This document shows, one piece after another, positions 480 through 36,885 of a DNA stretch of 56,500 nt; position 1 is the stretch's first letter; every line of letters begins with the position of its first letter. The notes below the pieces were generated by a model. That model saw nothing but the letters and a program-made list of their open reading frames with translations, was not told the origin of the DNA and ran no database searches. Both the position numbers and the translations under genes were made by a program. This DNA comes from Halobacteriovoraceae bacterium (GTDB lineage Bacteria > Bdellovibrionota > Bacteriovoracia > Bacteriovoracales > Bacteriovoracaceae). The stretch is from the NCBI GenBank assembly GCA_040377495.1, contig JBEIOQ010000001.1, forward strand, positions 1 through 56,500, written 5' to 3'.

Positions 480-494
480 AGGATTTATTTTAAC

Positions 495-1880
495 TTAAAA
501 ATTAATAAAGAGCGATGGTAAGACACCTCCCAGAATAACTACTACCCCCATAAATGTCAGAAGGAGTCTATTTTCAATAGAAATGGCCCCAGCTTGAACA
601 GGAACATAGTTTTCTGGTTTCTCTTCCATAAAAAGGGAGATCACAACTTTAATGTAATACCCGATTCCCACTATAGAACTTACCAACAGAGCTAAAGCAG
701 GACCAATCAGTCCTTCTTTAAAGTAGTTAGTGAAAAGAAGATACTTAGTAGCAAACCCTGAAGTGAGAGGAATTCCGGCCAAACTCAGCACACAAATACA
801 CAAAAGTGTCCCCATCAGATGGTTTTTATAGAAACCACCTTTCAGTCCATCATAAGTATCTTTGTTTTTATCAATATCTAGGAAGAAATTGATACAAAGT
901 ATAACTGCGGTCGCAGAAATAGAATAAAACATGAGATAAAAGATCAGTTGTTTTTCATAGCCTTGATTAATGTTAAGACCGATCGTCATCAACATATAAC
1001 CAGAGTGGGCGACAGAAGAGTAAGCAATCATACGCTTAAACTGATTTTGGGCCAGGCCCAAAATATTGCCATAAAAAGCTGAAATAATCGAAACCCCAAT
1101 AATGATGGAAACCATCATGTTTTGCACATGCGGTTCACATTCTGAAATCAAATTCTGTACTAAGGTGATCATAATAAAGCCAATCACAAATTTCGAAATA
1201 AGAAAATTGGAAGCCAAAACACCTTTGTGAACATTGGAATACACATCTGGGACCCAAGAATGAAATGGAAATGATCCAATTTTAAATAGAACGACAATTA
1301 AGAATAGTCCAATCGAGAAAGAGTAAAGCTGTTGATTCAAAATAGTGAAACCTTTGAATTCAAAGCCACCAGTTGCCCCGTAAAAGAAAGCAAGGGCCAA
1401 TAAGAAGATCACACTATTAATGGAACCTTGAATAAAATATTTTACAGCTGCTTCTTTAGAAAATTCTAAACCTGAAAGACGAACAAGGGCGTAAGTCATC
1501 AAGCTCATTAATTCTAAACTTACGTAAAAAGTTATAAACTCAGTCGCACCGACTAAAAAAATCGCTCCTAAAAAAACAAAGCTCGTAATAAGTGAATTAC
1601 GGACATCCTTTAACTCTTGATAACCATTAATGACAGTAACAATAATGGCGAAGATAGTTGTAATTGAAAGAATTTTCGTTCCTAAACTATTTACTACAAA
1701 AAGATTAGTTAGACTCAGGTCCATTTGTTGGTTGATGGAATAAAGGAAGATGACATAATTCACAATGGTTAAACCATAACTTATATACTTTCCTTTTTTA
1801 GGCACGATCAAAGAAAGTGTGGATAAGCATAGAATGCCTATGAAAACTAAAATTGTGGGGAGAAAACTCATGTTATCCAT
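495..1880 (-). CDS. nuoN: Complex-I-type membrane subunit N (ND2 family), set 2
   Basis: 461-aa polytopic antiporter-like protein. It has the TM5 Glu (YVSLELMSL) and the FPFHSWVPDVY motif. It is the last gene of an L-M-N series. Confidence 0.88.
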   Translation of the reverse strand: MDNMSFLPTILVFIGILCLSTLSLIVPKKGKYISYGLTIVNYVIFLYSINQQMDLSLTNLFVVNSLGTKILSITTIFAIIVTVINGYQELKDVRNSLITSFVFLGAIFLVGATEFITFYVSLELMSLMTYALVRLSGLEFSKEAAVKYFIQGSINSVIFLLALAFFYGATGGFEFKGFTILNQQLYSFSIGLFLIVVLFKIGSFPFHSWVPDVYSNVHKGVLASNFLISKFVIGFIMITLVQNLISECEPHVQNMMVSIIIGVSIISAFYGNILGLAQNQFKRMIAYSSVAHSGYMLMTIGLNINQGYEKQLIFYLMFYSISATAVILCINFFLDIDKNKDTYDGLKGGFYKNHLMGTLLCICVLSLAGIPLTSGFATKYLLFTNYFKEGLIGPALALLVSSIVGIGYYIKVVISLFMEEKPENYVPVQAGAISIENRLLLTFMGVVVILGGVLPSLFINF

Positions 1881-1893
1881 GACTGTTCCTTCT

Positions 1894-3381
1894 TTATACT
1901 TTGGTGATTAGAGAAGGAATGATCCCACTATAAACATCCGACAAAATCTTGGGATAAACCCCAAAAAGCAAAATTAAAAAAGCAAGAATCAAAAATGAAA
2001 TCATTTCTGTTTTGCTAATATCTGTTAAAGTTTCATTTTTAGGATTCGTAATTGGTCCTAGCATAACTTTTTGAAATGTTGTTAAAAGGTAAACCGGCGC
2101 AAGGATAACCCCTAAAGCACAAACAAACCCCAACACTGGATGAACTTCATAAATTCCCCAGATAATCAAAAACTCGCCCACAAAACCATTGGTTAGTGGA
2201 ACGGCCATACTTCCAAGCAACATAATGAAGAAGGCAACAGCAAATACCGGCATAACCTTCGCAACTCCACCATATTCAGAAATCATTTTAGTGTGACGTC
2301 TAACATACAAACAATGAACAGCGATAAAAAGACCGCCTGTGGTTATTCCGTGAGAAACCATTTGAAAAATAGCACCATTCACAGCCATTTCATTAAAAGA
2401 AAAAATTCCTGCGACAATATAACCCATATGGGAAATAGAAGAAAAAGCGACAACCTTTTTAACATCTTCCTGAGCAATGGCAGTTAAGGCACCGTAGACT
2501 ACACCAATGGCCCCTAAAGTAATGATCACTTCTTTGTAAGCAAACACCGCCTGTGGGTAAACTGGAATAACAAATCGAAGTAAACCGTAGATACCAAGTT
2601 TAAGCAACACACCTGCTAGAATAATAGAACCTGCTGTAGGAGCTTGCACATGGGCATCCGGCAGCCAAGAGTGAAATGGAAACACGGGTACTTTTATAAA
2701 AAGTGCCAAACAAAAGGCGCAGAAAATTAATGACTGGGGTGAGAAAAATCCTGCAAAAGGTAAATTTAGGCTTTTAATAATGACCGGTGTTAAATCATAG
2801 GAGCCATTCATCACATAACTGAGTGAACTCATATACATCATCGCTCCCAACATAATAATAGAGCCAGCAGCAGTATAAATGAAGAATTTGTAGCTTGCAT
2901 ATTTTCTTTCATCACCGCCAAAAACACCAACTAAGATGAAGAGTGGGATCAACATCGCTTCCCAGAAAATATAGAAAGCATAAAGATTTTCCGTCAACAA
3001 TGATCCATTAACTGCCCATGAAAGAGAAAAAATGGAAAAATAATAAAGCTTAAACTTGGTTGTTTCAACATTCAGTGTAGAAATCACGACAATTAAAAGT
3101 AAAAGCGCATTAAGAGTAATTAACACACCAGAAAGACCATCAATCCCAATGGCATAAGTTAACCCAAAAAAGTTATCAATTTTAAAAGTAATCAGATTAG
3201 TAAGCGTGCTAAGACCATGTTGACTAGCAACAGAGTTCACTAAATTAAATGTTAGTAACAAATAAATAATGGAAGCAACAAGGGCCAGAATTTGAGACTT
3301 TTTCTTATTAAGTGGAGAAATATAAAAACTTATAGCCGCCAACAAGGGAAAGAAAAACTGAAATAAAACTAAATTTTCCAT
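1894..3381 (-). CDS. nuoM: Complex-I-type membrane subunit M (ND4 family), set 2
   Basis: 495 aa. Motifs: YIFWEAMLIPLFILVGVFGG and FPFHSWLPDAHVQAPTAGS. It lies between the nuoL and nuoN homologues. Confidence 0.9.
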   Translation of the reverse strand: MENLVLFQFFFPLLAAISFYISPLNKKKSQILALVASIIYLLLTFNLVNSVASQHGLSTLTNLITFKIDNFFGLTYAIGIDGLSGVLITLNALLLLIVVISTLNVETTKFKLYYFSIFSLSWAVNGSLLTENLYAFYIFWEAMLIPLFILVGVFGGDERKYASYKFFIYTAAGSIIMLGAMMYMSSLSYVMNGSYDLTPVIIKSLNLPFAGFFSPQSLIFCAFCLALFIKVPVFPFHSWLPDAHVQAPTAGSIILAGVLLKLGIYGLLRFVIPVYPQAVFAYKEVIITLGAIGVVYGALTAIAQEDVKKVVAFSSISHMGYIVAGIFSFNEMAVNGAIFQMVSHGITTGGLFIAVHCLYVRRHTKMISEYGGVAKVMPVFAVAFFIMLLGSMAVPLTNGFVGEFLIIWGIYEVHPVLGFVCALGVILAPVYLLTTFQKVMLGPITNPKNETLTDISKTEMISFLILAFLILLFGVYPKILSDVYSGIIPSLITKV

Positions 3382-3387
3382 ACCAAC

Positions 3388-5313
3388 CTATTTAACCATT
3401 AGGGCTGAAAACAAAATTGTTACAATAATTGTTAAGCCCATAATCATAAAGAAAATATTACTTTGAAGCTCAACGCCTCTTACCGACTTCAAGAAAACGG
3501 AACTTTGAAAACTTAGAATACCTATTGTACGAACAGCTCCGTCGATGACATATTTTTCAACGATATTTACTAGAAACCCGGCAAAGTTTTTAATAGGCTT
3601 AATGATTATGGCAAAATAGACTTCATCCACAAAAAATTTGTTATTACTTAAATTCCAAACCTTACGTAGGTTGAATTTAAATTTATCTGCCAACTTGGAT
3701 TCTTCATTTTTTACATACATAAAGTAAGCTAAAAACATTGAGATAAAAGTTAATCCTATAGTTAAACCCATCAATAAATGTTCCGTGTGCTCATCATAAA
3801 CAATAGGCTTTGGTCCACTCACGGCCTTTTCTACAAATAATTGAAAGGCGCGAGCATTTTCATGAGACATAAAATGAGGCATCCCTAGATAACCCACACC
3901 AATGCTACAAATAGATAAAATAGCCAAAGGAATTATCATAATCGGTGGCGCATCATGAATAGGATGATGAGGATCATGGTGTGTTTTATCTTTGCTTAAA
4001 AAAGTCAGACAAACCAAGCGAGTCATATAAAAGGCAGTAAGTGTTGCTGCCGTTAAAAGAATGGCAAAGATATATTGTCCAGTTCCAGCTTTATTAAAGG
4101 CCATCCACATAATTTCATCTTTACTAAAGAAACCTGAAAATAATGGAACCCCAGCGATACTCAATAGGGCAACGACAAAACACCAATAAGTTTTTGGCAT
4201 TTTCTTTTTTAGTCCACCCATTTTAAACATGTCTTGTTCGTGATGCAGGCAGTGAATAACTGCTCCCGCCCCCAAGAACAACAGTGCTTTAAAAAATGCA
4301 TGAGTGAAAACGTGGAACATCCCTGAAGAGAAAGCTCCTACACCACAAGCAGCTATCATAAAACCAATTTGTGAAACAGTAGAATAGGCCAAAACTTTTT
4401 TAATATCCGATTGAGTAACAGCAACAATCGCTGCCATCAGTGCTGTCACAGAACCAATCCATGCAATCACTTCCAGCACCACAGAAAGATGGGTAATAAC
4501 AAAAGAAATACGACAAAGCATAAACACACCTGCAGTCACCATCGTTGCAGCGTGAATCAGTGCCGAAACCGGTGTTGGGCCACTCATTGCGTCCGGCAAC
4601 CAGATATAAAGAGGGATTTGAGCAGATTTACCTGTTGCACCTAAAACTAGAAATAAGCTAGAAAGTGTTAGCATTTCTTTATTCGCCAACACCGTTTCCA
4701 TAGAAACAGCTTTTAAATCCACAAATGAAATTGAATGAAACACCATCGCGTAACCTACAATTCCTAAGACAACCCCAAGGTCACCTACTCGGTTAGCAAC
4801 AAAAGCTTTTCTTCCGGCCTTCGCCTTATCAAGATCTGTATACCAGAAACCAATAAGAAGATATGAACAAAGCCCTACTCCTTCCCAACCAAAGAAAAGA
4901 ACCAATAAGTTTTCTGAAAGAGTAAGAAGTAGCATGGAGAAAATAAATAATGAAAGATACGAGAAAAATTTTCCAGGTCTTTCATCGTGATCCATATAAC
5001 CAATAGCGAAAAGGGTAATTAAACTTCCAATTCCAGTCACCATAATAGAAAGGATGATAGAAAGGTTGTCCATTAAGAATTTTACTTCAAAAGTAAAATT
5101 AGAAAACTGCATCCACTGCCATAGACTTGCCGTGACTGGAGTTTCTTTAACGTATGGATAAAGAAGACAAACAAAAATAAAAGAAATGAATGTTCCTAGA
5201 AATGAAATAAATCCCGCTAACGAATTTTTTGCATTCGACTTCAAAATCAAGCCATTTGTTAAAAAGGCAAGAAGTGGAAACAGGGGGATAATTTTTAAAT
5301 ATAATTCACTCAT
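3388..5313 (-). CDS. nuoL: Complex-I-type membrane subunit L (ND5 family), set 2
   Basis: 641 aa. Motifs: FFGWEGVGLCSYLLIGFW and SAQIPLYIWLPDAMSGPTPVSALIHAATMV. The C-terminal lateral-helix segment is FFVDEVY...VIDG, followed by a final TM helix. Confidence 0.92.
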   Translation of the reverse strand: MSELYLKIIPLFPLLAFLTNGLILKSNAKNSLAGFISFLGTFISFIFVCLLYPYVKETPVTASLWQWMQFSNFTFEVKFLMDNLSIILSIMVTGIGSLITLFAIGYMDHDERPGKFFSYLSLFIFSMLLLTLSENLLVLFFGWEGVGLCSYLLIGFWYTDLDKAKAGRKAFVANRVGDLGVVLGIVGYAMVFHSISFVDLKAVSMETVLANKEMLTLSSLFLVLGATGKSAQIPLYIWLPDAMSGPTPVSALIHAATMVTAGVFMLCRISFVITHLSVVLEVIAWIGSVTALMAAIVAVTQSDIKKVLAYSTVSQIGFMIAACGVGAFSSGMFHVFTHAFFKALLFLGAGAVIHCLHHEQDMFKMGGLKKKMPKTYWCFVVALLSIAGVPLFSGFFSKDEIMWMAFNKAGTGQYIFAILLTAATLTAFYMTRLVCLTFLSKDKTHHDPHHPIHDAPPIMIIPLAILSICSIGVGYLGMPHFMSHENARAFQLFVEKAVSGPKPIVYDEHTEHLLMGLTIGLTFISMFLAYFMYVKNEESKLADKFKFNLRKVWNLSNNKFFVDEVYFAIIIKPIKNFAGFLVNIVEKYVIDGAVRTIGILSFQSSVFLKSVRGVELQSNIFFMIMGLTIIVTILFSALMVK

Positions 5314-5319
5314 GTTGGC

Positions 5320-5613
5320 CTACTCTGATTGAATGCTAACTTCGTCGGATTCTGTGGTGTTAATCTTCTTAAATAAGCTCACAATAATAGATATCCCGAT
5401 CGCTGCTTCAGCCGCAGCAACCGTAATAATAAAAAATACCTGGATTTGAGAATCAATATTTCCCGTTGTTTTAGAAAACAACACAAAGAATAAATTTACA
5501 GCAGAAAGCATTAACTCGATACAAAGCAGGATTGATATAAGATTTTTTTTAGTTAAAGCCCCAACTAATCCAAGACAAAATAAAAAAGCAGCTAAATAGT
5601 AATAAATAATCAT
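5320..5613 (-). CDS. nuoK: Complex-I-type membrane subunit K (ND4L family), set 2
   Basis: 97 aa with 3 TM helices. Both conserved Glu residues are present (LLCIELML and AAAEAAIG). It overlaps nuoJ by 4 nt. Confidence 0.9.
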   Translation of the reverse strand: MIIYYYLAAFLFCLGLVGALTKKNLISILLCIELMLSAVNLFFVLFSKTTGNIDSQIQVFFIITVAAAEAAIGISIIVSLFKKINTTESDEVSIQSE

Positions 5614-6122
5614 GCTTGGTCTCCGTCTTCATTGTTACCTAAAGACTTCTTTAACATACTAACAACAGTAACGACTGAAGCCAGTAGCAACATGGTCGCT
5701 AACTCAAACGGAACAAGATACTTTTCAAATAATTCTTTAAACAAATCCATCATATTGGTTTGCGGTAACTGATCTTTAGAAAGATAGTCAAAATTATTGG
5801 TGATAATGATTGAGAATACACCTAATAAAACCATGGCTGAAACTATACCCACAATCGGCTTCACGTTATTACGGGATAAATGTTTTTTATAATCGTCTAT
5901 ATTTAAAAGCATAAGAACGAAAATAAAAAGAATCGCAATAGCTCCGGCATAAACCAGAACTTGAATAGCTGAAATAAAAGTTGAGCCCAACTGAAAGAAA
6001 ATTCCTGCCATTGCCACAAACATAGTTAACAGCGAAAATGCTGAGACCATAGGGTTGGAGGAAATTACTACCACCAAGGCAAAAATACTACAAATGACAG
6101 TTAAAAGTATGTCTATGGCCAT
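5610..6122 (-). CDS. nuoJ: Complex-I-type membrane subunit J (ND6 family), set 2
   Basis: 170 aa. It carries an ND6-like core (AIQVLVYAGAIAILFIFVLML) and lies between the nuoH and nuoK homologues. Confidence 0.85.
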   Translation of the reverse strand: MAIDILLTVICSIFALVVVISSNPMVSAFSLLTMFVAMAGIFFQLGSTFISAIQVLVYAGAIAILFIFVLMLLNIDDYKKHLSRNNVKPIVGIVSAMVLLGVFSIIITNNFDYLSKDQLPQTNMMDLFKELFEKYLVPFELATMLLLASVVTVVSMLKKSLGNNEDGDQA

Positions 6123-6128
6123 GGTGTC

Positions 6129-7169
6129 CTACTTTTGAAAATATATAAAAGCGACTGTGATTATTAAGTTAATTATTCCTAAAGGGAGTAAGCGCTTCCA
6201 TCCTAAATCCATAAGTTGATCATAGCGTAGACGAGGAAGTGACCAACGAACCCAAACAAACAACCAAATCATAAGGCCTACTTTAATAATTAATGAAGCT
6301 GTTTGAAGAATTGGAAGTGGAATCATATTTTCAAGAAGACTCATTCCCGGCAGAAGGTTATATCCACCAAAAAATAAAATTATGAAAACAGCTGATAATA
6401 CAATCATGTGAATATACTCAGCCATGAAAAATAATGCAAACTTCATAGAAGAGTATTCTACGTGATAACCTGCGACTAATTCTGATTCACCTTCAGCAAG
6501 GTCAAAGGGAAGGCGATTTGATTCAGCAAAAATACCTACTAGGAAAATAACTGTCGCAATCGGTTGGTAAAAGAATCCCCAACGTGGGAGAAAACCCAGA
6601 ATCGTTTCATTTTGATAGGCCACCATTTGATGTAAATCATTGGTTCCATAAAGAAAGAACATCGCCACCAATGTGATCGACATCGAAAGTTCGTAACTTA
6701 CCATCTGAGCTGAAGCACGAATTGCACCGAGCATAGAAAATTTATTATTGGAGGCCCAACCAGCAATTAAGATGGCATAGGAACCTAGAGAAGCCGCTGC
6801 AAATACATAAAAAATACCCATTGAGCTACGGAAGGATTCAGGAAATATTGTTTCTCCACCAATTATAAAGGGAGCACAAAGAGGAATACTAGCTAGTGGC
6901 ATTAATGCAACCATAACTGCAAATATAGGTGCCAATTTATAAAAGAACGGACGCACATGTGATGGCGCAACTTCTTCTTTAAACATAAACTTCACTACAT
7001 CTGCCAATGGCTGTAATAAACCAAAAGGTCCAACTCGGTTAGGCCCAACACGTTTTTGAATAAACGCTGCCCCTCTGCGTTCTACATGAATTATCAAAGG
7101 TAGAACACCTAAGGGAATGAGAATGATAATAATAACTTTAGCGAGAAGAATTAGAATTTCATTAATCAT
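6129..7169 (-). CDS. nuoH: Complex-I-type membrane subunit H (ND1 family), set 2
   Basis: 346 aa. Motifs: ERRGAAFIQKRVGPNRVGPFGLLQPLADVVKF and NRLPFDLAEGESELVAGYHVEYSS. Confidence 0.92.
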   Translation of the reverse strand: MINEILILLAKVIIIILIPLGVLPLIIHVERRGAAFIQKRVGPNRVGPFGLLQPLADVVKFMFKEEVAPSHVRPFFYKLAPIFAVMVALMPLASIPLCAPFIIGGETIFPESFRSSMGIFYVFAAASLGSYAILIAGWASNNKFSMLGAIRASAQMVSYELSMSITLVAMFFLYGTNDLHQMVAYQNETILGFLPRWGFFYQPIATVIFLVGIFAESNRLPFDLAEGESELVAGYHVEYSSMKFALFFMAEYIHMIVLSAVFIILFFGGYNLLPGMSLLENMIPLPILQTASLIIKVGLMIWLFVWVRWSLPRLRYDQLMDLGWKRLLPLGIINLIITVAFIYFQK

Positions 7170-7170
7170 T

Positions 7171-7530
7171 TTAGTCTTCCCAGTCTAAGCTTTTTGAGAA
7201 CAATACAAAAAGATAGCCCACAATAAAAATAAACATGAAAAAGACAAATTCAGCAATCATAAGTCCCTTCATAGATGATTCTTGATAAGTCAGGGCCCAT
7301 GGAAACAAGAACACGACTTCCACATCAAAAAGAAGAAACAAAACAGCCGTTAGATAAAATTTAACATCATATCTTCTAGTGGCGCTTCCTACAGGATTAA
7401 CTCCAGATTCATAGATATCATGCTCTCTAACCGTCTTTGGTTTTTTTCCTAATAAGACGGAAACGGTTAATAAACCAATTCCTAATAAAAACCCAATAAC
7501 GACAAATAATATGACCGGAAGAAGATTCAT
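7171..7530 (-). CDS. nuoA: Complex-I-type membrane subunit A (ND3 family), set 2
   Basis: 119 aa. Motif: YESGVNPVGSATRRYDVKFYLTAVLFLLFDVEVVFLFPWA. It starts 12 nt after the stop codon of set-1 nuoN. Confidence 0.9.
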   Translation of the reverse strand: MNLLPVILFVVIGFLLGIGLLTVSVLLGKKPKTVREHDIYESGVNPVGSATRRYDVKFYLTAVLFLLFDVEVVFLFPWALTYQESSMKGLMIAEFVFFMFIFIVGYLFVLFSKSLDWED

Positions 7531-7542
7531 TCTTTATCCCAA

Positions 7543-9009: not shown

Positions 9010-9038
9010 GGTATTACCCTTCTATTTAAATCTAAAAA

Positions 9039-10568
9039 TTAAACAGCAAATTTTCCTAATAAAGTTACCAAGCTTCCTACTGAAGCTCTCATGATATCCA
9101 GGATCGGAGTTGGATAAATTCCAAACACAACTACTGCTACACAAAGAGGAAGCATGTAGAAAACTTCTCTAGCATTCATATCTTCGTATTCTTTTACTTC
9201 CTCTGATGGTTCACCAAAAAACATACGCTTGAACATCCAAAGAAGATAAGCAGCACCGATAAGAAGACCAAGCACACCAACAACCGCGATTGATTGATAT
9301 TTACCAAATACACCAAGGAAAATCAGAGCTTCAGAAATAAAACCAGAAAGACCTGGCAGACCTAATGAGGCAAACATCGCAATAATAAAGATCACGGTAT
9401 AACGTGGAAGTTGTGTATAAAGACCGCCGTATCCTTTTGTCCCATCTGGCTTAACAATCCAACGATGGTGAGAACGTTCATAAAGTACACCGATCATTAA
9501 GAACATCATGGCAGTTGATGTACCGTGGTTGAACATTTGAAGAACAGCACCATTCATTCCCATAGTAGTCATTGCAGCCATACCCATCATAACGAATCCC
9601 ATGTGAGACACTGATGAATAAGCGACAAGTTTCTTCACATCATCCTGGGCCATTGCACAGAAAGCTCCATAGAGTATTGAGATCAGACCAAGAATAGCAA
9701 TCCAGTTAGAGTAATAAACCGTTGCCGCAGGAAAGATAGGAAACGAAATTCGAAGGAAACCATATGAACCCATTTTTAGCAACACCCCTGCCAGAATTAC
9801 TGATACAGCAGTAGGAGCTTGTACGTGCGCGTGTGGTAACCAAGTATGGAATGGAAAAATAGGAACCTTGATAGCGAAACCAAGAAACATAAACCAAAAG
9901 AAAACTCTTTCAAATGAAAGTGTATGGCCAAAAAGAGTAATGGTTTCATTAACGAAGTGACCACCAGCCAACGCCATAATATTAAATGAAGCTGGGCCTT
10001 TTCCAGACACATAGAAAAGAGCAATGATACCAATTAACATGAAGATTGAACCAAAGAAGGTATAAAGGAAAAACTTGATCGCTGCGTATTCGCGGTTTTC
10101 ACCACCCCAAATTCCAATAAGGAAGAACATTGGAAGAAGCATAACCTCCCAGTAAACATAGAACAAAAAGAAGTCCAATGACATGAAAACACCGAAGACC
10201 GTACTTTGTAAAAAAAGTAGTAAGGCAAAGTAGGCCTTAACTGATTTTTCAATGGTCCAAGAACTCATGGTACAAAGGAAGAATAAAAGACCTGTTAAAA
10301 TTATCATTGGAAGAGAAATTCCATCGATACCTAAAGAGTAATTGATGTGGAAATCCTTAATCCAAGGAACGCTAAAAGCAGTATTAGGTTGAATTCCAGG
10401 AAGACTTAAATCAAACCCCTTATAAAGTACGAGGGTTAAAAGAAAAGTCACTAAAGTTGTTACTAAGCTTACCCAGCGAATAACGTTCGCTTTTTCTTTG
10501 GGAACGATGAGTACTGCCACCATCCCAATAATAGGTAACCACAAAATCCAGTTTAATAAACCTTGCAC
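9039..10568 (-). CDS. nuoM: Complex-I-type membrane subunit M (ND4 family), set 1
   Basis: 509 aa. Motifs: YVYWEVMLLPMFFLIGIWGG and FPFHTWLPHAHVQAPTAVS. Confidence 0.9.
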   Translation of the reverse strand: MQGLLNWILWLPIIGMVAVLIVPKEKANVIRWVSLVTTLVTFLLTLVLYKGFDLSLPGIQPNTAFSVPWIKDFHINYSLGIDGISLPMIILTGLLFFLCTMSSWTIEKSVKAYFALLLFLQSTVFGVFMSLDFFLFYVYWEVMLLPMFFLIGIWGGENREYAAIKFFLYTFFGSIFMLIGIIALFYVSGKGPASFNIMALAGGHFVNETITLFGHTLSFERVFFWFMFLGFAIKVPIFPFHTWLPHAHVQAPTAVSVILAGVLLKMGSYGFLRISFPIFPAATVYYSNWIAILGLISILYGAFCAMAQDDVKKLVAYSSVSHMGFVMMGMAAMTTMGMNGAVLQMFNHGTSTAMMFLMIGVLYERSHHRWIVKPDGTKGYGGLYTQLPRYTVIFIIAMFASLGLPGLSGFISEALIFLGVFGKYQSIAVVGVLGLLIGAAYLLWMFKRMFFGEPSEEVKEYEDMNAREVFYMLPLCVAVVVFGIYPTPILDIMRASVGSLVTLLGKFAV

Positions 10569-10578
10569 AGGAAACTCC

Positions 10579-12762
10579 TTATATAATCTTCAATGTCCAA
10601 ATATAACTAGCTGTTACAATAATAAGTACGATGAAATAGAATTGAATTTTTCCAGATTGAACGATTCTTAGAATGAGGTTCATGAAATTAACCGCCATTC
10701 CGTTACCGTCTACCATGATTCCATCTACGATGTTGTTATCAAACCATTTGTGTGCTTTAAACACCCAACGATTTACATGTTGCCATCCATCCACAGCAAA
10801 ACGGTCATAAACTCCCATATCAAAAGCAGCGAGAAGTTTATTCATATTAAGAAGACCCTTCTGGATAATGACACCCACATAAAGATCATCAAAGTAATAA
10901 CGATTTTTGAGAGCACGAGTCCAGCCACTGAAAGTATTTACAAAAGTTGCTGGGTTCAATGATTTTTGGATATACATTAAGAACGCCAGGAACACGCCCG
11001 AGAACGCAATAATCACAGAAATGATCGCACCCCAAACGTGAGCTTTGTGTAGTTTAGCTTCTGGAGTTGTTGGATCTGGGAAATGATGAGGGTGATAGTG
11101 TGAATGCTCCCACTCCTTGGCCACTCTAGTATCCGTTGATCCAAACTGCTCACTGACATAACTCGTGAATTTTTGTACTTCGGGTTTTTTAATTAAAACA
11201 TCAAACCACTCATACTTAGACTCTGGAAAAATTCTGATCTCACCTTGACCCGTCAGTGATCCCGAATAGAACACACCAAGAGTAAAAATTGATAGAATCA
11301 AAAGAGGAATATTTGAATTAAATTGAAGATGTTCTTCATGACAGTGTTCATACACTTCTTTATCACGAGGTTCACCGTAGAAAGTTAAGAACATCATACG
11401 GAACATATAAAAGGCTGTAAGCAGGGCCGCTCCAAATCCTAGGATTGGAACTAACATATGCTTTGGATTGGCCATGAAGCCCCAATAGAGAGCATCACCA
11501 AGAATTCTATCTTTAGAAACAAATCCTGAGAAAAGTGGAATACCGGCAATGGCCAAAGTACAACACATCATCGCAATGAAAGTATAAGGAAGCTTTTTAC
11601 GTAGACCACCCATACGTGGCATTTCTTGCACATGTGAATCGGTGTGGTGGTCGTGAAGTGAGTGAATCACTGACCCGGCCGCAAGGAACAGACAAGCCTT
11701 GAAAACCGCGTGAGTAATAAGGTGCATGAAAGAAGCATTGTAGGCCCCAACACCGATACCTAAAACCATGTAACCTAATTGAGAAATAGTAGAAAAAGCG
11801 AGAACCGCTTTAATGTCGGTTTGCACGAGGGCAATTGTCGCAGCCCCAAAGGCGGTGATAGCTCCAATGTAAGCGATAAAAGTTGTCACTCCCCCCGCTT
11901 CCATTAAGGGATACATTCTTAAAGAAAGATAAACTCCAGCGGCAACCATCGTCGCTGCGTGAATAAGAGCTGAACACGGAGTTGGCCCCATCATCGCGTC
12001 TGGCAACCAAACTTGTAATGGAAACTGCGCTGACTTTCCGATGGTACCAGCGAAGATACAGTAACCAGCAAAAGTCGTAAGACCAATACCCATCACTGAC
12101 ATTCCTGCTAATTTACCAGTGGCCAAAGCAGCATAAATATCCACAAAACGAACTGAACCAAGTGCATGCCATAGTGCCATAATTCCCAGGAAGAAAATAA
12201 CGTCCCCTACTCTAGTTGTCATGAAAGCTTTAATCGATGCATTTCCGGCAGCTTCTTTCTCGTGATAAAAACCAATCAGTGAGTATGAACAGAACCCCAT
12301 AAGTTCCCAGAAGATGAAAACTGAAAGCACATTATCGGAAAGAACTAGTCCCAACATTCCTGAAGTAAAGAGTGAAAGATAATCGAAGAACTTTCCGTAC
12401 TTCGGATCGTCATGCATATAGAAAGTTGAGAATAAGTGAATGAGAGTTGCAACTCCTGTCACCATCAACAACATAACGGCTGTCATGTTATCAATATAGA
12501 TACCAAGATCTAATTTCACGATTTGATCAGCAAAGCTTAAATCAATCCAAGTGAAAACCTTGTGAACATAGTAATCGGTGTTGTACTTCATAAAGAAGAA
12601 ATCAGAGAAAACTCTGAAAGCATAAATGAATGAGCCAAAAATAGCTAAAACACTTAGCCAATCTCCCTGGCGAGGAAGTTTTCTTCCCACAAATGCATTA
12701 ATAACAAATGCAAAGAAAGGGAAAAGAAAAATCGGTGCAATGGTTCCAATCGTGTACTGCAT
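10579..12762 (-). CDS. nuoL: Complex-I-type membrane subunit L (ND5 family), set 1; unusually long
   Basis: 727 aa. Motifs: IFWELMGFCSYSLIGFY and SAQFPLQVWLPDAMMGPTPCSALIHAATMV. The C-terminal part contains a hydrophilic insertion and a lengthened YYFDDLY...VDG...VDG lateral-helix region. Confidence 0.92.
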   Translation of the reverse strand: MQYTIGTIAPIFLFPFFAFVINAFVGRKLPRQGDWLSVLAIFGSFIYAFRVFSDFFFMKYNTDYYVHKVFTWIDLSFADQIVKLDLGIYIDNMTAVMLLMVTGVATLIHLFSTFYMHDDPKYGKFFDYLSLFTSGMLGLVLSDNVLSVFIFWELMGFCSYSLIGFYHEKEAAGNASIKAFMTTRVGDVIFFLGIMALWHALGSVRFVDIYAALATGKLAGMSVMGIGLTTFAGYCIFAGTIGKSAQFPLQVWLPDAMMGPTPCSALIHAATMVAAGVYLSLRMYPLMEAGGVTTFIAYIGAITAFGAATIALVQTDIKAVLAFSTISQLGYMVLGIGVGAYNASFMHLITHAVFKACLFLAAGSVIHSLHDHHTDSHVQEMPRMGGLRKKLPYTFIAMMCCTLAIAGIPLFSGFVSKDRILGDALYWGFMANPKHMLVPILGFGAALLTAFYMFRMMFLTFYGEPRDKEVYEHCHEEHLQFNSNIPLLILSIFTLGVFYSGSLTGQGEIRIFPESKYEWFDVLIKKPEVQKFTSYVSEQFGSTDTRVAKEWEHSHYHPHHFPDPTTPEAKLHKAHVWGAIISVIIAFSGVFLAFLMYIQKSLNPATFVNTFSGWTRALKNRYYFDDLYVGVIIQKGLLNMNKLLAAFDMGVYDRFAVDGWQHVNRWVFKAHKWFDNNIVDGIMVDGNGMAVNFMNLILRIVQSGKIQFYFIVLIIVTASYIWTLKII

Positions 12763-12765
12763 GAC

Positions 12766-13071
12766 TTAGTTCCTTAATTGAGTCGCTTCATCAATATGAA
12801 TCGTTTCTTTAATTTGAAAAAATCTAATAACAATCGCTAATCCCACCGCTGCTTCAGCTGCAGCGACAACAATAATGAAAAGCGCAAATATATGGCCATC
12901 TAAGTTATTAGTAACAAACTTAGAGTAGGCAACAAAATTTAAGGCCGCAGCATTTAGGATCATTTCAATCCCCAAAAGAATGGCCACAACATTTTTACGA
13001 GCGATCATGATCCAAACACCGATCGCAAACATAAACACACTAATAAGGAGGTAAGATTCTAATGTAATCAT
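12766..13071 (-). CDS. nuoK: Complex-I-type membrane subunit K (ND4L family), set 1
   Basis: 101 aa. Both conserved Glu residues are present (LLGIEMIL and AAAEAAVG). Confidence 0.9.
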   Translation of the reverse strand: MITLESYLLISVFMFAIGVWIMIARKNVVAILLGIEMILNAAALNFVAYSKFVTNNLDGHIFALFIIVVAAAEAAVGLAIVIRFFQIKETIHIDEATQLRN

Positions 13072-13080
13072 TGTTGCACC

Positions 13081-13614
13081 TTAAAAAATCTTTTTAGGAC
13101 GTGCAATAATTGCAGCCCCAATTAAAGCTCCCAGCAAAAGAACTGATGAAAGTTCAAAAGCCAGAACATGATTTGTAACTAAAAGTTTTCCAATTTTATT
13201 AACCGTAGATTCAGTTGCTGCCATTTTGTTTTGAGGAATCGCCGAACGTAAGTTAATAAACAACTTACTCGTTGAAATAACTAAAACAGCTGCAGTCAGA
13301 ATTCCGACAAAAGTAGAAAATTTATTTCCCATGGCCGGAATTAATCCCATTAAAGCTTGAGCACGCGAAACGAAGTCTTTACCGCCTGTTAACATCACTG
13401 CAAACAACATTAAGATAACAATACCACCGACATAAACCATAATTTGTGTCGCTGCTACGAAATCAGCACCTAATGTCACATACAATCCAGCCACTCCAAT
13501 AAGCGAGCCGAGCAGAAAGATACACGAGTGCATGATATTTTTTGTCGTCACTAAAGAGATCGACGACAAAAAGATCAAGAAAGTAGAAAGAAAGAAGAGT
13601 GTATTTAAAAACAT
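13081..13614 (-). CDS. nuoJ: Complex-I-type membrane subunit J (ND6 family), set 1
   Basis: 177 aa. ND6-like core ATQIMVYVGGIVILMLFAVML. It lies between the nuoH and nuoK homologues. Confidence 0.85.
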   Translation of the reverse strand: MFLNTLFFLSTFLIFLSSISLVTTKNIMHSCIFLLGSLIGVAGLYVTLGADFVAATQIMVYVGGIVILMLFAVMLTGGKDFVSRAQALMGLIPAMGNKFSTFVGILTAAVLVISTSKLFINLRSAIPQNKMAATESTVNKIGKLLVTNHVLAFELSSVLLLGALIGAAIIARPKKIF

Positions 13615-13627
13615 ATTTTAATCCTTA

Positions 13628-14782
13628 TTAATGTCCACCAGCTGCGTGGGAGCCAGCTGCGAAAATGAGATCAAAAATTGATTTCCCGTTGAACCAGTAA
13701 ACCCAAAAAGCCATTCCCACTAAATTGAAAATTGCCATTGGAGTTAAATATTTCCAACAAACAGTCATTAGTTGGTCAACACGTAGACGTGGAAGCGTCC
13801 AGCGAATCCAAATAACCACGTAGTAAAGAGCAAGTGTTTTTGAAACAAAAGCACCAATCTGAAGCAACTGCCCTACTAAACCGTCACCACCTAAATTAAA
13901 GGGAACATTGTATCCGCCCAAAAATAGAGCTGAGGCAACACCGCAAACAACAAAAACTTCTACGTACTCTGCTAATGCAAAAAATCCAAACTTCATCCCT
14001 GTATACTCAGTGTGATAACCAGAAACAAGCTCTGATTCAGCCTCAGGTAAATCGAAAGGGGCACGATTGGTCTCTGCTAGAGCACCTGTAAAGAAAACGA
14101 AGAATGCAATAAAAGCGAAAGGATTGTGAAAAATAAACCAAGTGTGAGGAAGGCCCGCCTGCTGAGCAATGATTTTGTTAAAACCAAGAGAACCAGCCAA
14201 CAAACAGATTCCTAAAACAGAAATTGTAACAGGGATTTCATAAGATATAATTTGAGAAGCTCCTCTCATTCCGCCCAACATCGACCATTTAGAGTTAGAA
14301 GCATAACCACCGAGGAAAACACCCAGACCCACCAAAGATGAGATGGCGATCAAATAAAATGTTCCAACATCTAATTGAGTAAGAGTGAAGCCAGAAGAAA
14401 AAGGCAGCACAGCTAGAGTTGAAAAAACACCGACCATGCAAAAAATGGGAGAGATAAAAAATAAAAACTTATCTGCATCTCGCGGAGTAATGTCTTCTTT
14501 CATGATCATCTTCACACCGTCTGCCAGAAACTGAAGAAGACCGTAAGGGCCAACACGGTTAGGACCAATTCGAAGTTGCATATCAGCTGAGATTTTTCTT
14601 TCAGCATACGTACCTAAACCGCCAATCGCTGCCATAATATTCACGATCACGAAGGCGACTAGGAAAAAAATAACGAAAGTAAGCAATGCTGTAACATCAA
14701 AACCTAAGCTCTTAGTGAGGAAGGCTATGAATTGTTTTACTGGCTCAAACCCAGTTAAGTAACTAACAACCGTAGAGTTCAT
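13628..14782 (-). CDS. nuoH: Complex-I-type membrane subunit H (ND1 family), set 1
   Basis: 384 aa. Motifs: ERKISADMQLRIGPNRVGPYGLLQFLADGVKM and NRAPFDLPEAESELVSGYHTEYTG. The N-terminus is longer than in the set-2 paralogue. Confidence 0.92.
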   Translation of the reverse strand: MNSTVVSYLTGFEPVKQFIAFLTKSLGFDVTALLTFVIFFLVAFVIVNIMAAIGGLGTYAERKISADMQLRIGPNRVGPYGLLQFLADGVKMIMKEDITPRDADKFLFFISPIFCMVGVFSTLAVLPFSSGFTLTQLDVGTFYLIAISSLVGLGVFLGGYASNSKWSMLGGMRGASQIISYEIPVTISVLGICLLAGSLGFNKIIAQQAGLPHTWFIFHNPFAFIAFFVFFTGALAETNRAPFDLPEAESELVSGYHTEYTGMKFGFFALAEYVEVFVVCGVASALFLGGYNVPFNLGGDGLVGQLLQIGAFVSKTLALYYVVIWIRWTLPRLRVDQLMTVCWKYLTPMAIFNLVGMAFWVYWFNGKSIFDLIFAAGSHAAGGH

Positions 14783-14784
14783 GA

Positions 14785-15216
14785 TTATTCCTTAATCTTG
14801 TTAAGTTTGTTGTTATTTTGCACATTAAAGCTTTTAACCCAATCAAGATCACCCTTTCTCCAGCAGTAGGCGATGCCAGCGACCAAAATGAACATGAAAA
14901 TTAAAACTTCAAAAAGAATCAGACCACCATTACCTTGATCAACCATTTCACGGAAAATTGATACCACTGGGAACATTAGAGCAGATTCCACATCGAAAAT
15001 AATAAAAATTAAACCTACAACGTAAAATCGTATATTGAACTGTGACCAGGCCGATCCCATCGGTTCTTCACCACACTCGTAAGGTGTTTCCTTTTTTATC
15101 GTTGGGTTACTTGGGCGTAAAATCCTAGAAGCTAAAAAAGCTAATAAACAGATCGCCACCCCCAAAAACATGAGGATAATGATTGGCATAAAGACATCAA
15201 TGTTATTTGATGGCAT
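14785..15216 (-). CDS. nuoA: Complex-I-type membrane subunit A (ND3 family), set 1; first gene of the 14-gene array
   Basis: 143 aa. Motif: YECGEEPMGSAWSQFNIRFYVVGLIFIIFDVESALMFPV. A GGAGA Shine-Dalgarno sequence lies 8 nt upstream on the minus strand. Confidence 0.9.
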   Translation of the reverse strand: MPSNNIDVFMPIIILMFLGVAICLLAFLASRILRPSNPTIKKETPYECGEEPMGSAWSQFNIRFYVVGLIFIIFDVESALMFPVVSIFREMVDQGNGGLILFEVLIFMFILVAGIAYCWRKGDLDWVKSFNVQNNNKLNKIKE

Positions 15217-15276
15217 AGAAGTGTCTCCGAATTACTAAACAAATTGTTTGGGATAGGGTACTTGATTGTAAAGATA

Positions 15277-15305
15277 TTGAAAACAGGAAAGAATCAGATT
15301 ATTTA
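15277..15305 (+). promoter_or_regulatory. Possible sigma70-type promoter for mfd
   Basis: TTGAAA (15277-15282), a 17-nt spacer, then TATTTA (15300-15305). It sits about 45 nt upstream of the mfd ATG, in the 132-bp divergent nuoA/mfd intergenic region. Confidence 0.3.
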
Positions 15306-15348
15306 GGAATTCTTTCTCTCAATTTCTCGACTGAAAAGATAAGGTTTT

Positions 15349-24775: not shown

Positions 24776-24815
24776 AGAAAATCCCCTGTTAAAAAAGTGT
24801 TAATATTCGGTTTAA

Positions 24816-25586: not shown

Positions 25587-25608
25587 GGTCGACCTAAAAC
25601 AAAAAATA

Positions 25609-36325: not shown

Positions 36326-36366
36326 TACCCACTCTAAATTTAGACTCTTGAACTAAGGAAATACTT

Positions 36367-36519: not shown

Positions 36520-36522
36520 TCT

Positions 36523-36882: not shown

Positions 36883-36885
36883 TTC

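What the first reader, a model, noticed from the sequence alone, without database searches (positions are those of the whole stretch)
495..15216. Fourteen-gene operon made of two divergent complex-I membrane arms (nuoA-H-J-K-L-M-N twice) with no peripheral-arm genes
Seen in sequence:
- There are 14 consecutive minus-strand genes separated by at most 29 nt, or overlapping.
- The order is A-H-J-K-L-M-N (15216 to 7543) and then again A-H-J-K-L-M-N (7530 to 495). Only 12 nt separate the two sets.
- The A/H gaps are 2 nt and 1 nt, and the H/J gaps are 13 nt and 6 nt. So neither set has room for nuoB/C/D(/E/F/G) between A and H, or for nuoI between H and J.
- The sets are old paralogues, not a recent duplication. 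For example, the two NuoK proteins differ at most positions outside LLxIExxL and AAAEAA(V/I)G.
- Both sets keep the residues I can check: the TM5 Glu (WE/LE/VE motifs) in all six antiporter-like subunits, both NuoK Glu residues, the NuoA FDVE motif, and the NuoH GPNRVGP and PFDLxExESEL motifs. Neither set looks like a decaying copy.

Established knowledge: canonical operons run A-B-C-D-(E-F-G)-H-I-J-K-L-M-N. NuoH forms the quinone chamber only together with NuoB/NuoD.

Inference: removing B-G and I precisely from two separate sets argues for a dedicated membrane-only module rather than an accidental operon split. There are three possibilities. First, two alternative membrane arms may serve a peripheral arm encoded elsewhere. 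Second, the sets may form an enlarged assembly with up to six antiporter-like subunits. Third, the module may be an Mrp-like ion translocator with a different or no redox partner.
Basis: partly seen in the sequence, partly recalled or inferred. Interest (0 to 1): 0.8.

Follow-up and report, generated by a model that had tools for sequence, protein, structure and literature searches.

The report
Two tandem complex I membrane-arm operons
A predatory bacterium (Bacteriovoracaceae) encodes the membrane halves of two different respiratory complex I enzymes back to back, with the matching soluble halves encoded elsewhere; this split gene layout is already known in its phylum, so only the tandem arrangement is new.

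Summary
In detail: 14 minus-strand genes (495-15216) are nuoA-H-J-K-L-M-N twice. Both sets are intact, keep every catalytic or proton-channel residue checked, and are under strong purifying selection.

It is less exotic than proposed. The window is the oriC region of a Bacteriovoracaceae (Bdellovibrionota) chromosome. In this phylum nuo genes are typically split by module.
- Set 1 (A directly next to H) sits at the same site beside mfd in all 80 related genomes fetched. It was reported in 2026 as conserved across Bdellovibrionota.
- Stand-alone peripheral-arm operons occur in relatives: nuoB-CD-I, and nuoB-CD-E-F-G-I (the latter in Bdellovibrio).
- Set 2 is a lineage-specific insert between nuoN1 and a TPR gene. 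It is intact in 12 of 57 informative genomes, strongly diverged in 22 and absent in 23. It is sister to the membrane genes of the complete nuoA-N operons of other Bacteriovoracaceae/Peredibacter.
- Set 1 shares a 28-residue NuoL lateral-helix insertion with 11-subunit (NuoEFG-less) operons.

Best reading: these are the membrane arms of two complex I isoforms that dock to peripheral arm(s) encoded in trans. I could not determine whether the genome has one shared or two cognate peripheral arms. Mrp-like and six-pump readings are not supported. Interest is moderate to low.

The parts
14785..15216 (-). nuoA, set 1 (143 aa)
   Evidence: Pfam Oxidored_q4 7e-32. FDVE motif kept.
13628..14782 (-). nuoH, set 1 (384 aa)
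   Evidence: Pfam NADHdh 7e-111. Best solved relatives are cyanobacterial/chloroplast NdhA. All loop and E-channel residues checked are kept.
13081..13614 (-). nuoJ, set 1 (177 aa)
   Evidence: Pfam Oxidored_q3 9e-33. Y59 kept.
12766..13071 (-). nuoK, set 1 (101 aa)
   Evidence: Pfam Oxidored_q2 4e-25. E36 and E72 kept.
10579..12762 (-). nuoL, set 1 (727 aa), with a loop insertion of about 55 aa before TM15 and a 28-aa insertion in the lateral helix
   Evidence: Pfam Proton_antipo_N+M. The HL span is 79 aa in all 52 orthologues measured, against 51-52 aa in canonical NuoL. The insertion is shared with the 11-subunit operons L160 and L152.
9039..10568 (-). nuoM, set 1 (509 aa)
   Evidence: Pfam Proton_antipo_M 6e-71. 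E144, K234, K265, E407 kept.
7543..9009 (-). nuoN, set 1 (488 aa)
   Evidence: Pfam Proton_antipo_M 2e-69. E133, K217, K247, K395 kept.
7531..7542 (-). 12-nt junction between nuoN1 stop and nuoA2 start (TTGGGATAAAGA), purine-rich just before the ATG
   Evidence: Sequence. No terminator-like or promoter-like site here above chance. In relatives the gap is 8 nt (L081) and 25 nt (L082).
7171..7530 (-). nuoA, set 2 (119 aa)
   Evidence: Pfam Oxidored_q4 8e-27. Sister to NuoA of complete operons.
6129..7169 (-). nuoH, set 2 (346 aa)
   Evidence: Pfam NADHdh 7.5e-107. Best solved relatives are mitochondrial Nad1 and Thermus Nqo8. 48% identical to NuoH of the complete operon in L086. Sister clade in the NJ tree.
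5610..6122 (-). nuoJ, set 2 (170 aa)
   Evidence: Pfam Oxidored_q3 2e-32.
5320..5613 (-). nuoK, set 2 (97 aa); overlaps nuoJ2 by 4 nt
   Evidence: Pfam Oxidored_q2 2e-27. E36 and E72 kept.
3388..5313 (-). nuoL, set 2 (641 aa), with a canonical-length lateral helix
   Evidence: Pfam Proton_antipo_N+M. Alignments.
1894..3381 (-). nuoM, set 2 (495 aa)
   Evidence: Pfam Proton_antipo_M 2e-73. Key residues kept.
495..1880 (-). nuoN, set 2 (461 aa), the most diverged subunit
   Evidence: Pfam Proton_antipo_M 1e-45. E133, K217, K247, K395 kept. dN/dS 0.018.
15217..15348 (.). 132-nt divergent intergenic region between nuoA1 and mfd, the likely promoter region of the block
   Evidence: ORF map. One weak -35/-10-like site at 15272-15243 on the minus strand, but counts are at chance level. 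The same divergent mfd neighbour is present in the related loci inspected.

Best explanation
The block encodes the complete membrane arms of two phylogenetically distinct respiratory complex I (NDH-1) isoforms, placed head to tail and probably transcribed as one unit from the nuoA1-mfd intergenic region.

Context. The organism is a Bacteriovoracaceae (Bdellovibrionota). In this phylum complex I genes are split by structural module: one operon for the membrane arm (A-H-J-K-L-M-N) and a separate operon for the peripheral arm (B-CD-I or B-CD-E-F-G-I).

Set 1 is the conserved membrane-arm operon at a fixed site next to mfd. It belongs to a lineage that shares features with 11-subunit, NuoEFG-less enzymes.

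Set 2 is a lineage-specific second membrane arm. It is sister to the membrane genes of the complete 14-gene nuo operon of other Bacteriovoracaceae and Peredibacter, and it lies between nuoN1 and a TPR-protein gene.

Mechanism (inferred). Each NuoA/H/J/K heel docks a NuoB-NuoCD-NuoI quinone-reduction module (with or without NuoEFG) made from genes elsewhere in the genome. Quinone reduction in the NuoH/B/D cavity then drives proton pumping through the E-channel and the three antiporter-like subunits, as in canonical complex I. Two membrane arms give two isozymes, for example for different conditions, donors or quinones.

Shown: gene identity, intactness, conservation, phylogenetic placement, and the existence of stand-alone peripheral-arm operons in related genomes.

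Inferred: that such an operon exists in this genome, co-transcription, and assembly. Not resolved: whether the two arms use two cognate peripheral arms or share one.
For: Gene identity and order.

Functional residues. All those checked are retained in both sets, including NuoH loop residues E36, R37, D63, D213, E216, E220, E228 and the NuoA FDVE motif.

Selection. dN/dS is 0.02-0.06 for all 14 genes against L081.

Conservation.
- Source clade, and set 1 with A adjacent to H in 80 of 80 loci; the divergent mfd-surA-surA-pdxA-uvrA neighbourhood in the loci inspected.
- The full 14-gene tandem in L081 and L082.

Literature.
- A nuoAHJKLMN cluster at the same site in all Bdellovibrionota, plus a second nuo cluster (Tan et al. 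2026, PMC13147790).
- The Bdellovibrio operon classed as 'split' (Degli Esposti 2015, PMC4758237).
- Dispersed nuo clusters are common (Moparthi and Hagerhall 2011).

Stand-alone peripheral operons.
- nuoB-CD-I in Bdellovibrionales bacterium GWA2_49_15 (L087).
- nuoB-CD-E-F-G-I in Bdellovibrio bacteriovorus and Bdellovibrionaceae relatives (L133, L130); nuoCD-E-F-G-I (nuoB not detected) in GWA2_38_16 (L136).
- The L087 Q-module nests inside the clade of complete-operon Q-modules, which points to recent operon fragmentation.

Placement of the two sets.
- Set 2 is sister to the membrane genes of the complete operons L085, L086 and others. H2-H3 identity is 48%, against 37% for H1-H3.
- Set 1 resembles the 11-subunit type: its best solved-structure hits are NdhA and NdhF, and it shares a 28-aa HL insertion with the 11-subunit operons L160 and L152.

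Junction. No terminator or promoter signal at the 12-nt N1/A2 junction.
Against: - I did not find a peripheral-arm gene in the same genome. The window is the whole contig on record. There is none in the window or within +-10 kb of set 1 in 80 relatives.
- No NuoD from the list lies on a known tandem contig. That list was saturated at 73% identity or more, and the metagenome scan depended on exact 8-mers, so these absences carry little weight.
- The only stand-alone B-CD-I cluster found is of the 14-subunit-type lineage, not the 11-subunit type expected for set 1.
- In the closest sister lineages the set-2 slot holds strongly diverged copies, so set 2 may be conditionally dispensable.
- Co-transcription is inferred only from spacing.
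Confidence: 0.72

Rival explanations
1. One shared peripheral arm. The genome has a single nuoB-CD-(EFG)-I operon, and the two divergent membrane arms compete for it, giving hybrid isoforms with the same redox module but different proton-pumping arms. This is a sub-variant of the main explanation but a distinct claim.
For: - Tan et al. 2026 describe only two nuo clusters in Peredibacter: the orphan nuoAHJKLMN and one complete operon. That would leave set 1 with no cognate Q-module.
- No 11-subunit-type Q-module was seen in any Bdellovibrionota locus I fetched. The stand-alone B-CD-I of L087 belongs to the complete-operon lineage.
- Set 1 is under strong purifying selection everywhere.
- From memory, not verified in the library: Aquifex aeolicus complex I isoforms share single-copy peripheral subunits.
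Against: - Spero et al. 2015 report that subunit recombination between complex I clades is rare and that subunits are gained or lost together.
- H1 and H2 are only 39% identical, so one NuoB/CD/I would have to fit two old interfaces.
- My searches for Q-modules were biased towards relatives of one NuoD type. The paper may simply not have looked for a small B-CD-I cluster.
Confidence: 0.3
2. A redox-independent, Mrp-like cation/proton translocator. One or both sets work as a membrane-only module with no peripheral arm.
For: - No peripheral genes in 56.5 kb, nor next to set 1 in 80 genomes.
- Antiporter-like subunits are homologous to MrpA/D (Pfam PF00361).
Against: - Both sets include NuoH and NuoA, which Mrp lacks, and there are no MrpB/E/F/G-like genes.
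- The NuoH TM5-6 loop (PFDLxExESEL...GYHxEY) and TM1-2 loop, and the NuoA loop, are conserved under dN/dS below 0.06. As far as I know from solved complex I structures, these elements act only together with NuoB/D.
- Relatives have trans-encoded peripheral operons.
Confidence: 0.05
3. A single enlarged assembly with up to six antiporter-like subunits, built from both sets.
For: - Tandem, tightly spaced genes.
- L1 has a 28-residue insertion in the lateral helix. From memory of Chadwick et al. 2018, such insertions mark four-pump complex I variants.
Against: - The same HL insertion occurs in ordinary 11-subunit operons that encode only L, M and N (L160, L152).
- It also occurs in all set-1 orthologues, including genomes with no set 2.
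- Each set has its own A/H/J/K heel and its own NuoL with TM16 anchor. L2 has a canonical-length helix.
- Set 2 is absent or degenerate in most relatives while set 1 is unchanged.
Confidence: 0.03
4. Set 2 is a redundant copy on its way to loss.
For: In sister lineages the same slot holds strongly diverged modules (NuoH at 94-125 bits against 357 here, or recognisable only by hhalign) or nothing at all.
Against: - In this lineage all seven set-2 genes are intact, keep all key residues, and have dN/dS of 0.018-0.041, as low as or lower than set 1.
- More than 120 clusters of H2 relatives at 68% identity or more exist.
- The set-2 tree broadly mirrors the set-1 tree.
Confidence: 0.04

Closest known systems
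Split nuo gene organisation of Bdellovibrionota (nuoAHJKLMN cluster; Tan et al. 2026, PMC13147790; 'split' Bdellovibrio operon, Degli Esposti 2015, PMC4758237)
   Same: Set 1 is this cluster. It has the same gene order, with A directly followed by H, and the same chromosomal site next to mfd. The complementary stand-alone nuoB-CD-E-F-G-I operon is seen in Bdellovibrio.
   Different: Here a second, divergent A-H-J-K-L-M-N set follows 12 nt after the first. The papers I could read do not describe this tandem. Peredibacter and other Bacteriovoracaceae instead carry the second enzyme as a complete nuoA-N operon elsewhere, next to nqr.
Bacteria with two phylogenetically distinct complex I isozymes (Spero et al. 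2015, PMC4453560; 2016, PMC4859585)
   Same: There are two old paralogous sets (27-42% identity) from different complex I lineages in one genome, both apparently functional.
   Different: In my understanding, the isozymes in those cases are encoded by two complete operons. Here only the membrane arms are present, and they are fused into one gene block.
11-subunit (NuoEFG-less) complex I / NDH-1 (Moparthi and Hagerhall 2011, PMC3144371)
   Same: Set 1's best solved relatives are NdhA and NdhF of cyanobacterial NDH-1. Its NuoL shares a 28-aa lateral-helix insertion with the 11-subunit operons L160 (Elusimicrobia) and L152.
   Different: In those organisms B, C, D and I sit inside the operon. In the NJ NuoH tree set 1 is a deep separate branch, not nested in a sampled 11-subunit clade. 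Its actual electron-input module is unknown.
Aquifex aeolicus complex I isoforms with duplicated membrane subunits (from memory: Peng et al.; not found in the library)
   Same: Duplicated A/H/J/K/L/M/N-type genes and a possible sharing of single-copy peripheral subunits.
   Different: A different phylum and gene layout. The sharing of peripheral subunits is not established here.
Mrp antiporter and Mbh/Mbx-type membrane modules
   Same: Homologous antiporter-like (PF00361) and NuoK-like subunits.
   Different: NuoH and NuoA are present with complex I-specific loops. There are no MrpB/E/F/G genes and no adjacent hydrogenase-like subunits.

Membership tests
Respiratory complex I (NDH-1/Nuo) membrane arm | Homologues of all seven membrane subunits A, H, J, K, L, M, N | tested here: met
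   Pfam hits far above gathering cut-offs for all 14 proteins. Top solved-structure hits are complex I/NDH-1 chains.
Respiratory complex I (NDH-1/Nuo) membrane arm | Conserved proton-channel residues (TM5 Glu, TM7 and TM12 Lys/Glu in L/M/N; NuoK E36/E72; NuoJ Y59; NuoA D79/E81; NuoH E-channel and loop residues) | tested here: met
   All are present in both sets on alignment to E. coli.
Respiratory complex I (NDH-1/Nuo) membrane arm | NuoL C-terminal lateral helix and TM16 anchor | tested here: met
   Both L1 and L2 align through HL and TM16. L1 carries a 28-aa HL insertion.
Respiratory complex I (NDH-1/Nuo), whole enzyme | Q-module subunits NuoB, NuoC, NuoD, NuoI encoded in the same genome | not testable with these tools
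   Absent from the 56.5 kb window, which is the whole contig on record. Present as stand-alone operons in related genomes.
Bdellovibrionota split nuoAHJKLMN cluster (Tan et al. 2026) | A-H-J-K-L-M-N order without B-G and I, at a conserved chromosomal site, across the phylum | tested here: met
   Set 1: 80 of 80 loci have A next to H, and the same mfd-surA-surA-pdxA-uvrA neighbourhood is seen in the loci inspected. 467 species-level genomes have a relative.
14-subunit complex I lineage of Bacteriovoracaceae/Peredibacter (complete nuoA-N operon) | Membrane subunits group with those of the complete operons | tested here: met
   Set 2 H and A are the sister clade of the L085/L086-type H and A in NJ trees. 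H2-H3 identity is 48% against 37% for H1-H3. The trees are NJ without bootstrap.
14-subunit complex I lineage of Bacteriovoracaceae/Peredibacter (complete nuoA-N operon) | B, C, D, E, F, G between A and H, and I between H and J | tested here: not met
   The A2/H2 gap is 1 nt and the H2/J2 gap is 6 nt.
Four-pump ('2M') complex I variants (Chadwick et al. 2018, from memory) | An extra antiporter-like gene per A/H/J/K set, plus a lateral-helix insertion in NuoL | tested here: not met
   Each set has exactly L, M and N. The L1 helix insertion is shared with three-pump 11-subunit operons.
Mrp-type cation/proton antiporter | MrpA-G gene set; no NuoH or NuoA homologue | tested here: not met
   NuoH and NuoA are present in both sets. 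No other small Mrp-type genes lie in the block.
Group 4 membrane-bound hydrogenase / Mbx / Fpo-type relatives | Adjacent NuoB/NuoD-like (hydrogenase small/large subunit) or FpoF-like genes | tested here: not met
   No such genes in the window.

The most novel reading that the evidence does not exclude
Two anciently diverged membrane arms (39% identity in NuoH), one of an 11-subunit-like lineage and one of a 14-subunit lineage, are co-expressed from one operon and assemble alternately onto a single trans-encoded NuoB-CD-I(-EFG) module. That would be a naturally modular complex I with interchangeable proton-pumping arms. The same slot would then show, in marine relatives, how a complex I membrane arm drifts into a barely recognisable new membrane complex.
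Probability: 0.28. Interest if true: 0.7.

Novelty: new variant of a known kind. Interest (0 to 1): 0.38.

Why it matters
If each arm simply has its own peripheral arm elsewhere, this is one more bacterium with two complex I isozymes and an unusual but already reported split gene layout. That is useful for annotation: membrane-only nuo clusters in Bdellovibrionota should not be scored as incomplete or absent complex I.

It matters more if only one Q-module exists. That would be a natural case of hybrid complex I assembly across deep clades, contrary to the general rule that subunits from different clades do not mix (Spero 2015). It would also offer a genetic system, in culturable predators such as Peredibacter or Bdellovibrio, for asking how the quinone site couples to different pumping arms.

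The graded series in the set-2 slot (intact, diverged, barely recognisable) is a rare view of how a complex I membrane arm evolves once constraint changes.

Tried and rejected
1. Thermophile or Aquificota origin, suggested by the 36% GC and the split atp operon. Rejected: the genome scan places the window in Bacteriovoracaceae.

2. Literature hits for 'nuoAHJKLMN' in Desulfurobacterium, Desulfurivibrio and a syntrophic acetate oxidiser. These papers only use the term for the membrane arm.

3. Locating the peripheral arm of a tandem-type genome. None of these routes worked:
- An exact look-up of H1 found nothing.
- The H2 entry is on a contig of 56,500 bases, the window's own length.
- The NuoD search was saturated at 73% identity or more, with no hit on known tandem contigs.
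- The metagenome scan depended on two exact 8-mers, so it was insensitive.
- Look-ups of further NuoD and NuoH hits gave only complete operons from unrelated MAGs.

4. L1 lateral-helix insertion as evidence of a fourth pump. Rejected, because three-pump 11-subunit operons share it.

5. L139 (N-like fragment, then A-B-C-D) as a direct intermediate for set 2. Its NuoA groups with L143, not with A2, and the N match is weak at 26 bits. L143 is a tandem of an 11-type and a 14-type operon from an unnamed organism.

6. Promoter and terminator scans were at chance level.

7. Supplements of the two key papers are not held. The Aquifex isoform paper and Chadwick et al. 2018 are not in the library.

Full report
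**1. Observation**

The window holds 14 consecutive minus-strand ORFs between 495 and 15216. Pfam assigns them, in order of transcription, to NuoA, H, J, K, L, M, N and again A, H, J, K, L, M, N, each far above the family cut-off.
- The paralogue pairs are 27-42% identical, so this is not a recent duplication.
- On alignment to E. coli, both sets keep every catalytic or proton-channel residue I checked. These include the NuoH loop residues which, as I recall from E. coli mutagenesis, are needed for docking the peripheral subunits.
- Against the closest relative (L081, 82-95% amino-acid identity), all 14 genes have dN/dS of about 0.02-0.06, with dS near saturation.
- No homologue of NuoB, C, D, E, F, G or I is present anywhere in the 56.5 kb.

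**2. Where it comes from**

The rest of the window is a chromosomal origin region:
- mfd, two surA-like genes, pdxA, uvrA, atpE-atpB, gyrA, gyrB, recF, dnaN and dnaA;
- then yidC, mnmE, mnmG, rsmG, parA, parB, a bactofilin gene and atpF'FHAGDC.

The cumulative GC-skew minimum lies at about 34-36 kb. A scan of one genome per species with set-1 NuoH found 467 relatives. The best 80 are nearly all labelled Bacteriovoracaceae, Bacteriovorax, Halobacteriovorax or other Bdellovibrionota (a few carry broader or other MAG labels), and the best is 87% identical. The source is therefore a predatory Bdellovibrio-like organism of the family Bacteriovoracaceae.

**3. Set 1 is a known, phylum-wide cluster**

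All 80 loci carry A1-H1-J1-K1-L1-M1-N1 with A directly followed by H. In the loci I inspected it is always divergent from mfd-surA-surA-pdxA-uvrA.

The literature already covers this:
- Tan et al. 2026 (PMC13147790) state that a nuoAHJKLMN cluster occupies the same site in all predatory and non-predatory Bdellovibrionota. They add that predatory strains have another nuo cluster, complete in Peredibacter and 'split' in other BALOs.
- Degli Esposti 2015 had classed the Bdellovibrio operon as split.
- Moparthi and Hagerhall 2011 note that many prokaryotes have two or three dispersed complex I clusters.

**4. Set 2 is a lineage-specific insert**

In close relatives the entire 14-gene tandem is conserved. 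It is followed after about 10-15 nt by a TPR protein of about 1080 aa (L081, L082), and the window ends inside the same gene.

Among 57 set-1 loci with enough downstream sequence:
- 12 (plus the window) have an intact set 2;
- 22 have a diverged module in the same slot;
- 23 (the freshwater B. stolpii-like clade) have a large ORF of about 1000 aa, which I take to be the TPR gene, directly after nuoN1.

Set-2 NuoH has more than 120 clusters of relatives at 68% identity or more. Outside that clade, the nearest 50%-identity representatives are at most 50% identical. The nearest outgroup is the NuoH of complete nuoA-B-C-D-E-F-G-H-I-J-K-L-M-N operons, next to nqr genes, in Peredibacter starrii and other Bacteriovoracaceae. 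In neighbour-joining trees, H2 and A2 are the sister clades of those H and A proteins, while set 1 is a separate deep branch. H2-H3 identity is 48%, H1-H3 37% and H1-H2 39%. The set-2 topology broadly mirrors the set-1 topology among tandem genomes, which suggests vertical co-inheritance.

**5. Where the missing subunits are in relatives**

I used a Bacteriovoracaceae NuoD as a probe, and then a fused NuoCD in the metagenome collection. This turned up the following:
- many complete operons;
- a stand-alone nuoB-nuoCD-nuoI cluster in Bdellovibrionales bacterium GWA2_49_15 (L087/L089);
- stand-alone nuoB-CD-E-F-G-I clusters (L129, L130, L133; L136 has nuoCD-E-F-G-I, with nuoB not detected). Their proteins cluster with those of Bdellovibrio bacteriovorus, of Bdellovibrionaceae MAGs, and of Deltaproteobacteria bacterium GWA2_38_16.

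These are the exact complements of A-H-J-K-L-M-N for an 11-subunit and a 13/14-subunit enzyme. The L087 Q-module nests inside the clade of complete-operon Q-modules, next to L095. Operon fragmentation is therefore recent and recurrent in this group.

**6. What I could not establish**

I could not find the peripheral-arm genes of a genome that carries the tandem.
- The set-2 NuoH of the window is on record only on a contig of the window's own length.
- No B-I homologue lies within +-10 kb of set 1 in any of 80 genomes.
- No NuoD in my lists lies on a known tandem contig, but that list was saturated at 73% identity or more.
- The metagenome scan relied on exact 8-mers.
- Further look-ups gave only complete operons from other MAGs.

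So 'one, two or no peripheral arm' remains open for this genome.

**7. Mechanism**

Both sets have the complete heel (A, H, J, K) and three antiporter-like subunits with intact channels. Both NuoH proteins keep the TM1-2 and TM5-6 loop residues that line the quinone cavity together with NuoB/D, and these are under strong purifying selection. The most economical reading is two canonical proton-pumping membrane arms that dock NuoB-CD-I (with or without EFG) made in trans.

Set 1 has affinities with NuoEFG-less enzymes:
- Its best solved relatives are cyanobacterial NdhA and NdhF.
- Its NuoL has a fixed 28-residue insertion in the lateral helix (a span of 79 against 51-52 residues). The same insertion is found in the 11-subunit operons L160 (Elusimicrobia) and L152.

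Because those operons encode only L, M and N, the insertion is a clade trait and not a sign of a fourth pump.

Set 2 belongs with the 14-subunit lineage. The 12-nt junction, with no terminator-like site, suggests one transcript, but this is inference.

**8. Rivals**

- Shared peripheral arm. This remains plausible, at roughly 0.3. Tan et al. list only an orphan set 1 and one complete operon in Peredibacter, and the only stand-alone B-CD-I I found is of the complete-operon lineage. Against it, Spero et al. 2015 find that mixing between complex I clades is rare, and my Q-module searches were biased.
- Mrp-like function. Disfavoured by the presence and conservation of NuoH and NuoA and by the absence of Mrp-specific genes.
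- A six-pump super-arm. Disfavoured because each set is self-contained, L2 has a canonical helix, and set 1 is unchanged where set 2 is missing.
- Decay of set 2. Excluded for this lineage by intact residues and low dN/dS, although the same slot in sister lineages is highly diverged.

**9. Side finding**

In Halobacteriovorax-type genomes the slot after nuoN1 holds a module with the size series of A-H-J-K-L. In L003, NuoA, H and K are still detectable at low scores (29, 94 and 41 bits). In L027 nothing matches Pfam. Profile-profile comparison still links the protein of about 275 aa to the C-terminal half of NuoH (hhalign 92.6%, E = 5e-7), and links the next protein only weakly to NuoJ. The ORFs are intact with conserved sizes across many species, so this looks like a changed function rather than pseudogenes. 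I did not resolve it.

**10. Verdict**

However, the design is the known split organisation of nuo genes in Bdellovibrionota. What is new is the head-to-tail arrangement of two divergent membrane-arm sets and its phylogenetic interpretation. I rate it a new variant of a known kind, of moderate to low interest. The one open question that would raise it is whether there is one peripheral arm or two.

Noticed in passing
L003:17307-21050; L027:17315-21206; also L004, L012, L013, L019, L021, L025, L033, L039, L040, L051-L053, L056, L060-L062, L066, L070, L080: In Halobacteriovorax-type genomes the slot after nuoN1 (where the window has set 2) holds a strongly diverged A-H-J-K-L-like module (about 95/275/146/85/450/260 aa). 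Pfam scores are weak in L003 and absent in L027. hhalign still links the protein of about 275 aa to the C-terminal half of NuoH (92.6%, E = 5e-7). The ORFs are intact and their sizes conserved across species, so this may be a new membrane complex derived from complex I rather than pseudogenes.
   Followed up: partly
window 10579-12762 (NuoL set 1, about aa 636-674): A fixed 28-residue insertion in the lateral amphipathic helix (span 79 against 51-52 aa), plus a loop insertion of about 55 aa before TM15. The helix insertion is shared with the NuoL of the 11-subunit operons L160 (Elusimicrobia) and L152, so it marks a complex I clade. Its structural role is unknown.
   Followed up: yes
L087:9295-12170 (MEPP01000031.1, Bdellovibrionales bacterium GWA2_49_15): A stand-alone nuoB / fused nuoCD / nuoI cluster with no membrane-arm or nuoEFG genes within 10 kb. 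Its proteins nest within the clade of complete-operon Q-modules (sister to L095), which implies recent operon fragmentation.
   Followed up: partly
L143:114-21667 (FRDC01001023.1, owner unnamed): An 11-subunit-type nuo operon (C-D-H-I-..-K-..-M-N) is followed 33 nt later by a 14-subunit-type nuoA-N operon. The order of enzyme types is the same as sets 1 and 2 in the window, but the peripheral genes are still in place.
   Followed up: partly
L085:8445-9989; L086:8457-9992: NuoG in the complete operons of Peredibacter and Bacteriovoracaceae is only about 511-517 aa (E. coli: 908 aa). It has Fer2/NADH-G_4Fe-4S/Fer4_Nqo3 domains but at most a faint molybdopterin-domain hit, so it is a truncated NuoG.
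   Followed up: no
window 1-479 (minus strand): Start of a large protein (MDKYRIRLANGRVVGPF...) 15 nt downstream of nuoN2. In relatives this is a TPR protein of about 1080 aa that follows N2 (L081, L082). An ORF of about 1000-1076 aa directly follows N1 in genomes without set 2 (not checked for homology). It may be co-transcribed with the nuo block.
   Followed up: partly
window 1-16000: The set-1 region has a higher G+C (about 0.385-0.40 over 8-14 kb) than the set-2 region (about 0.353-0.365 over 1-8 kb). This may reflect different histories or expression levels.
   Followed up: no
window 24437-25977 and 42430-50486; 34146-37100: The ATP synthase genes are split: atpB-atpE (with an upstream 122-aa ORF that has no Pfam hit) on the minus strand, and atpF'-F-H-A-G-D-C after parA-parB-bactofilin on the plus strand. 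The cumulative GC-skew minimum is at about 34-36 kb near dnaA. Only one adjacent pair of near-consensus DnaA boxes was found (34445-34462). The nuo block is co-oriented with replication, about 20-35 kb from the origin.
   Followed up: partly
window 50651-52846: A 731-aa ORF with no Pfam match, downstream of atpC.
   Followed up: no
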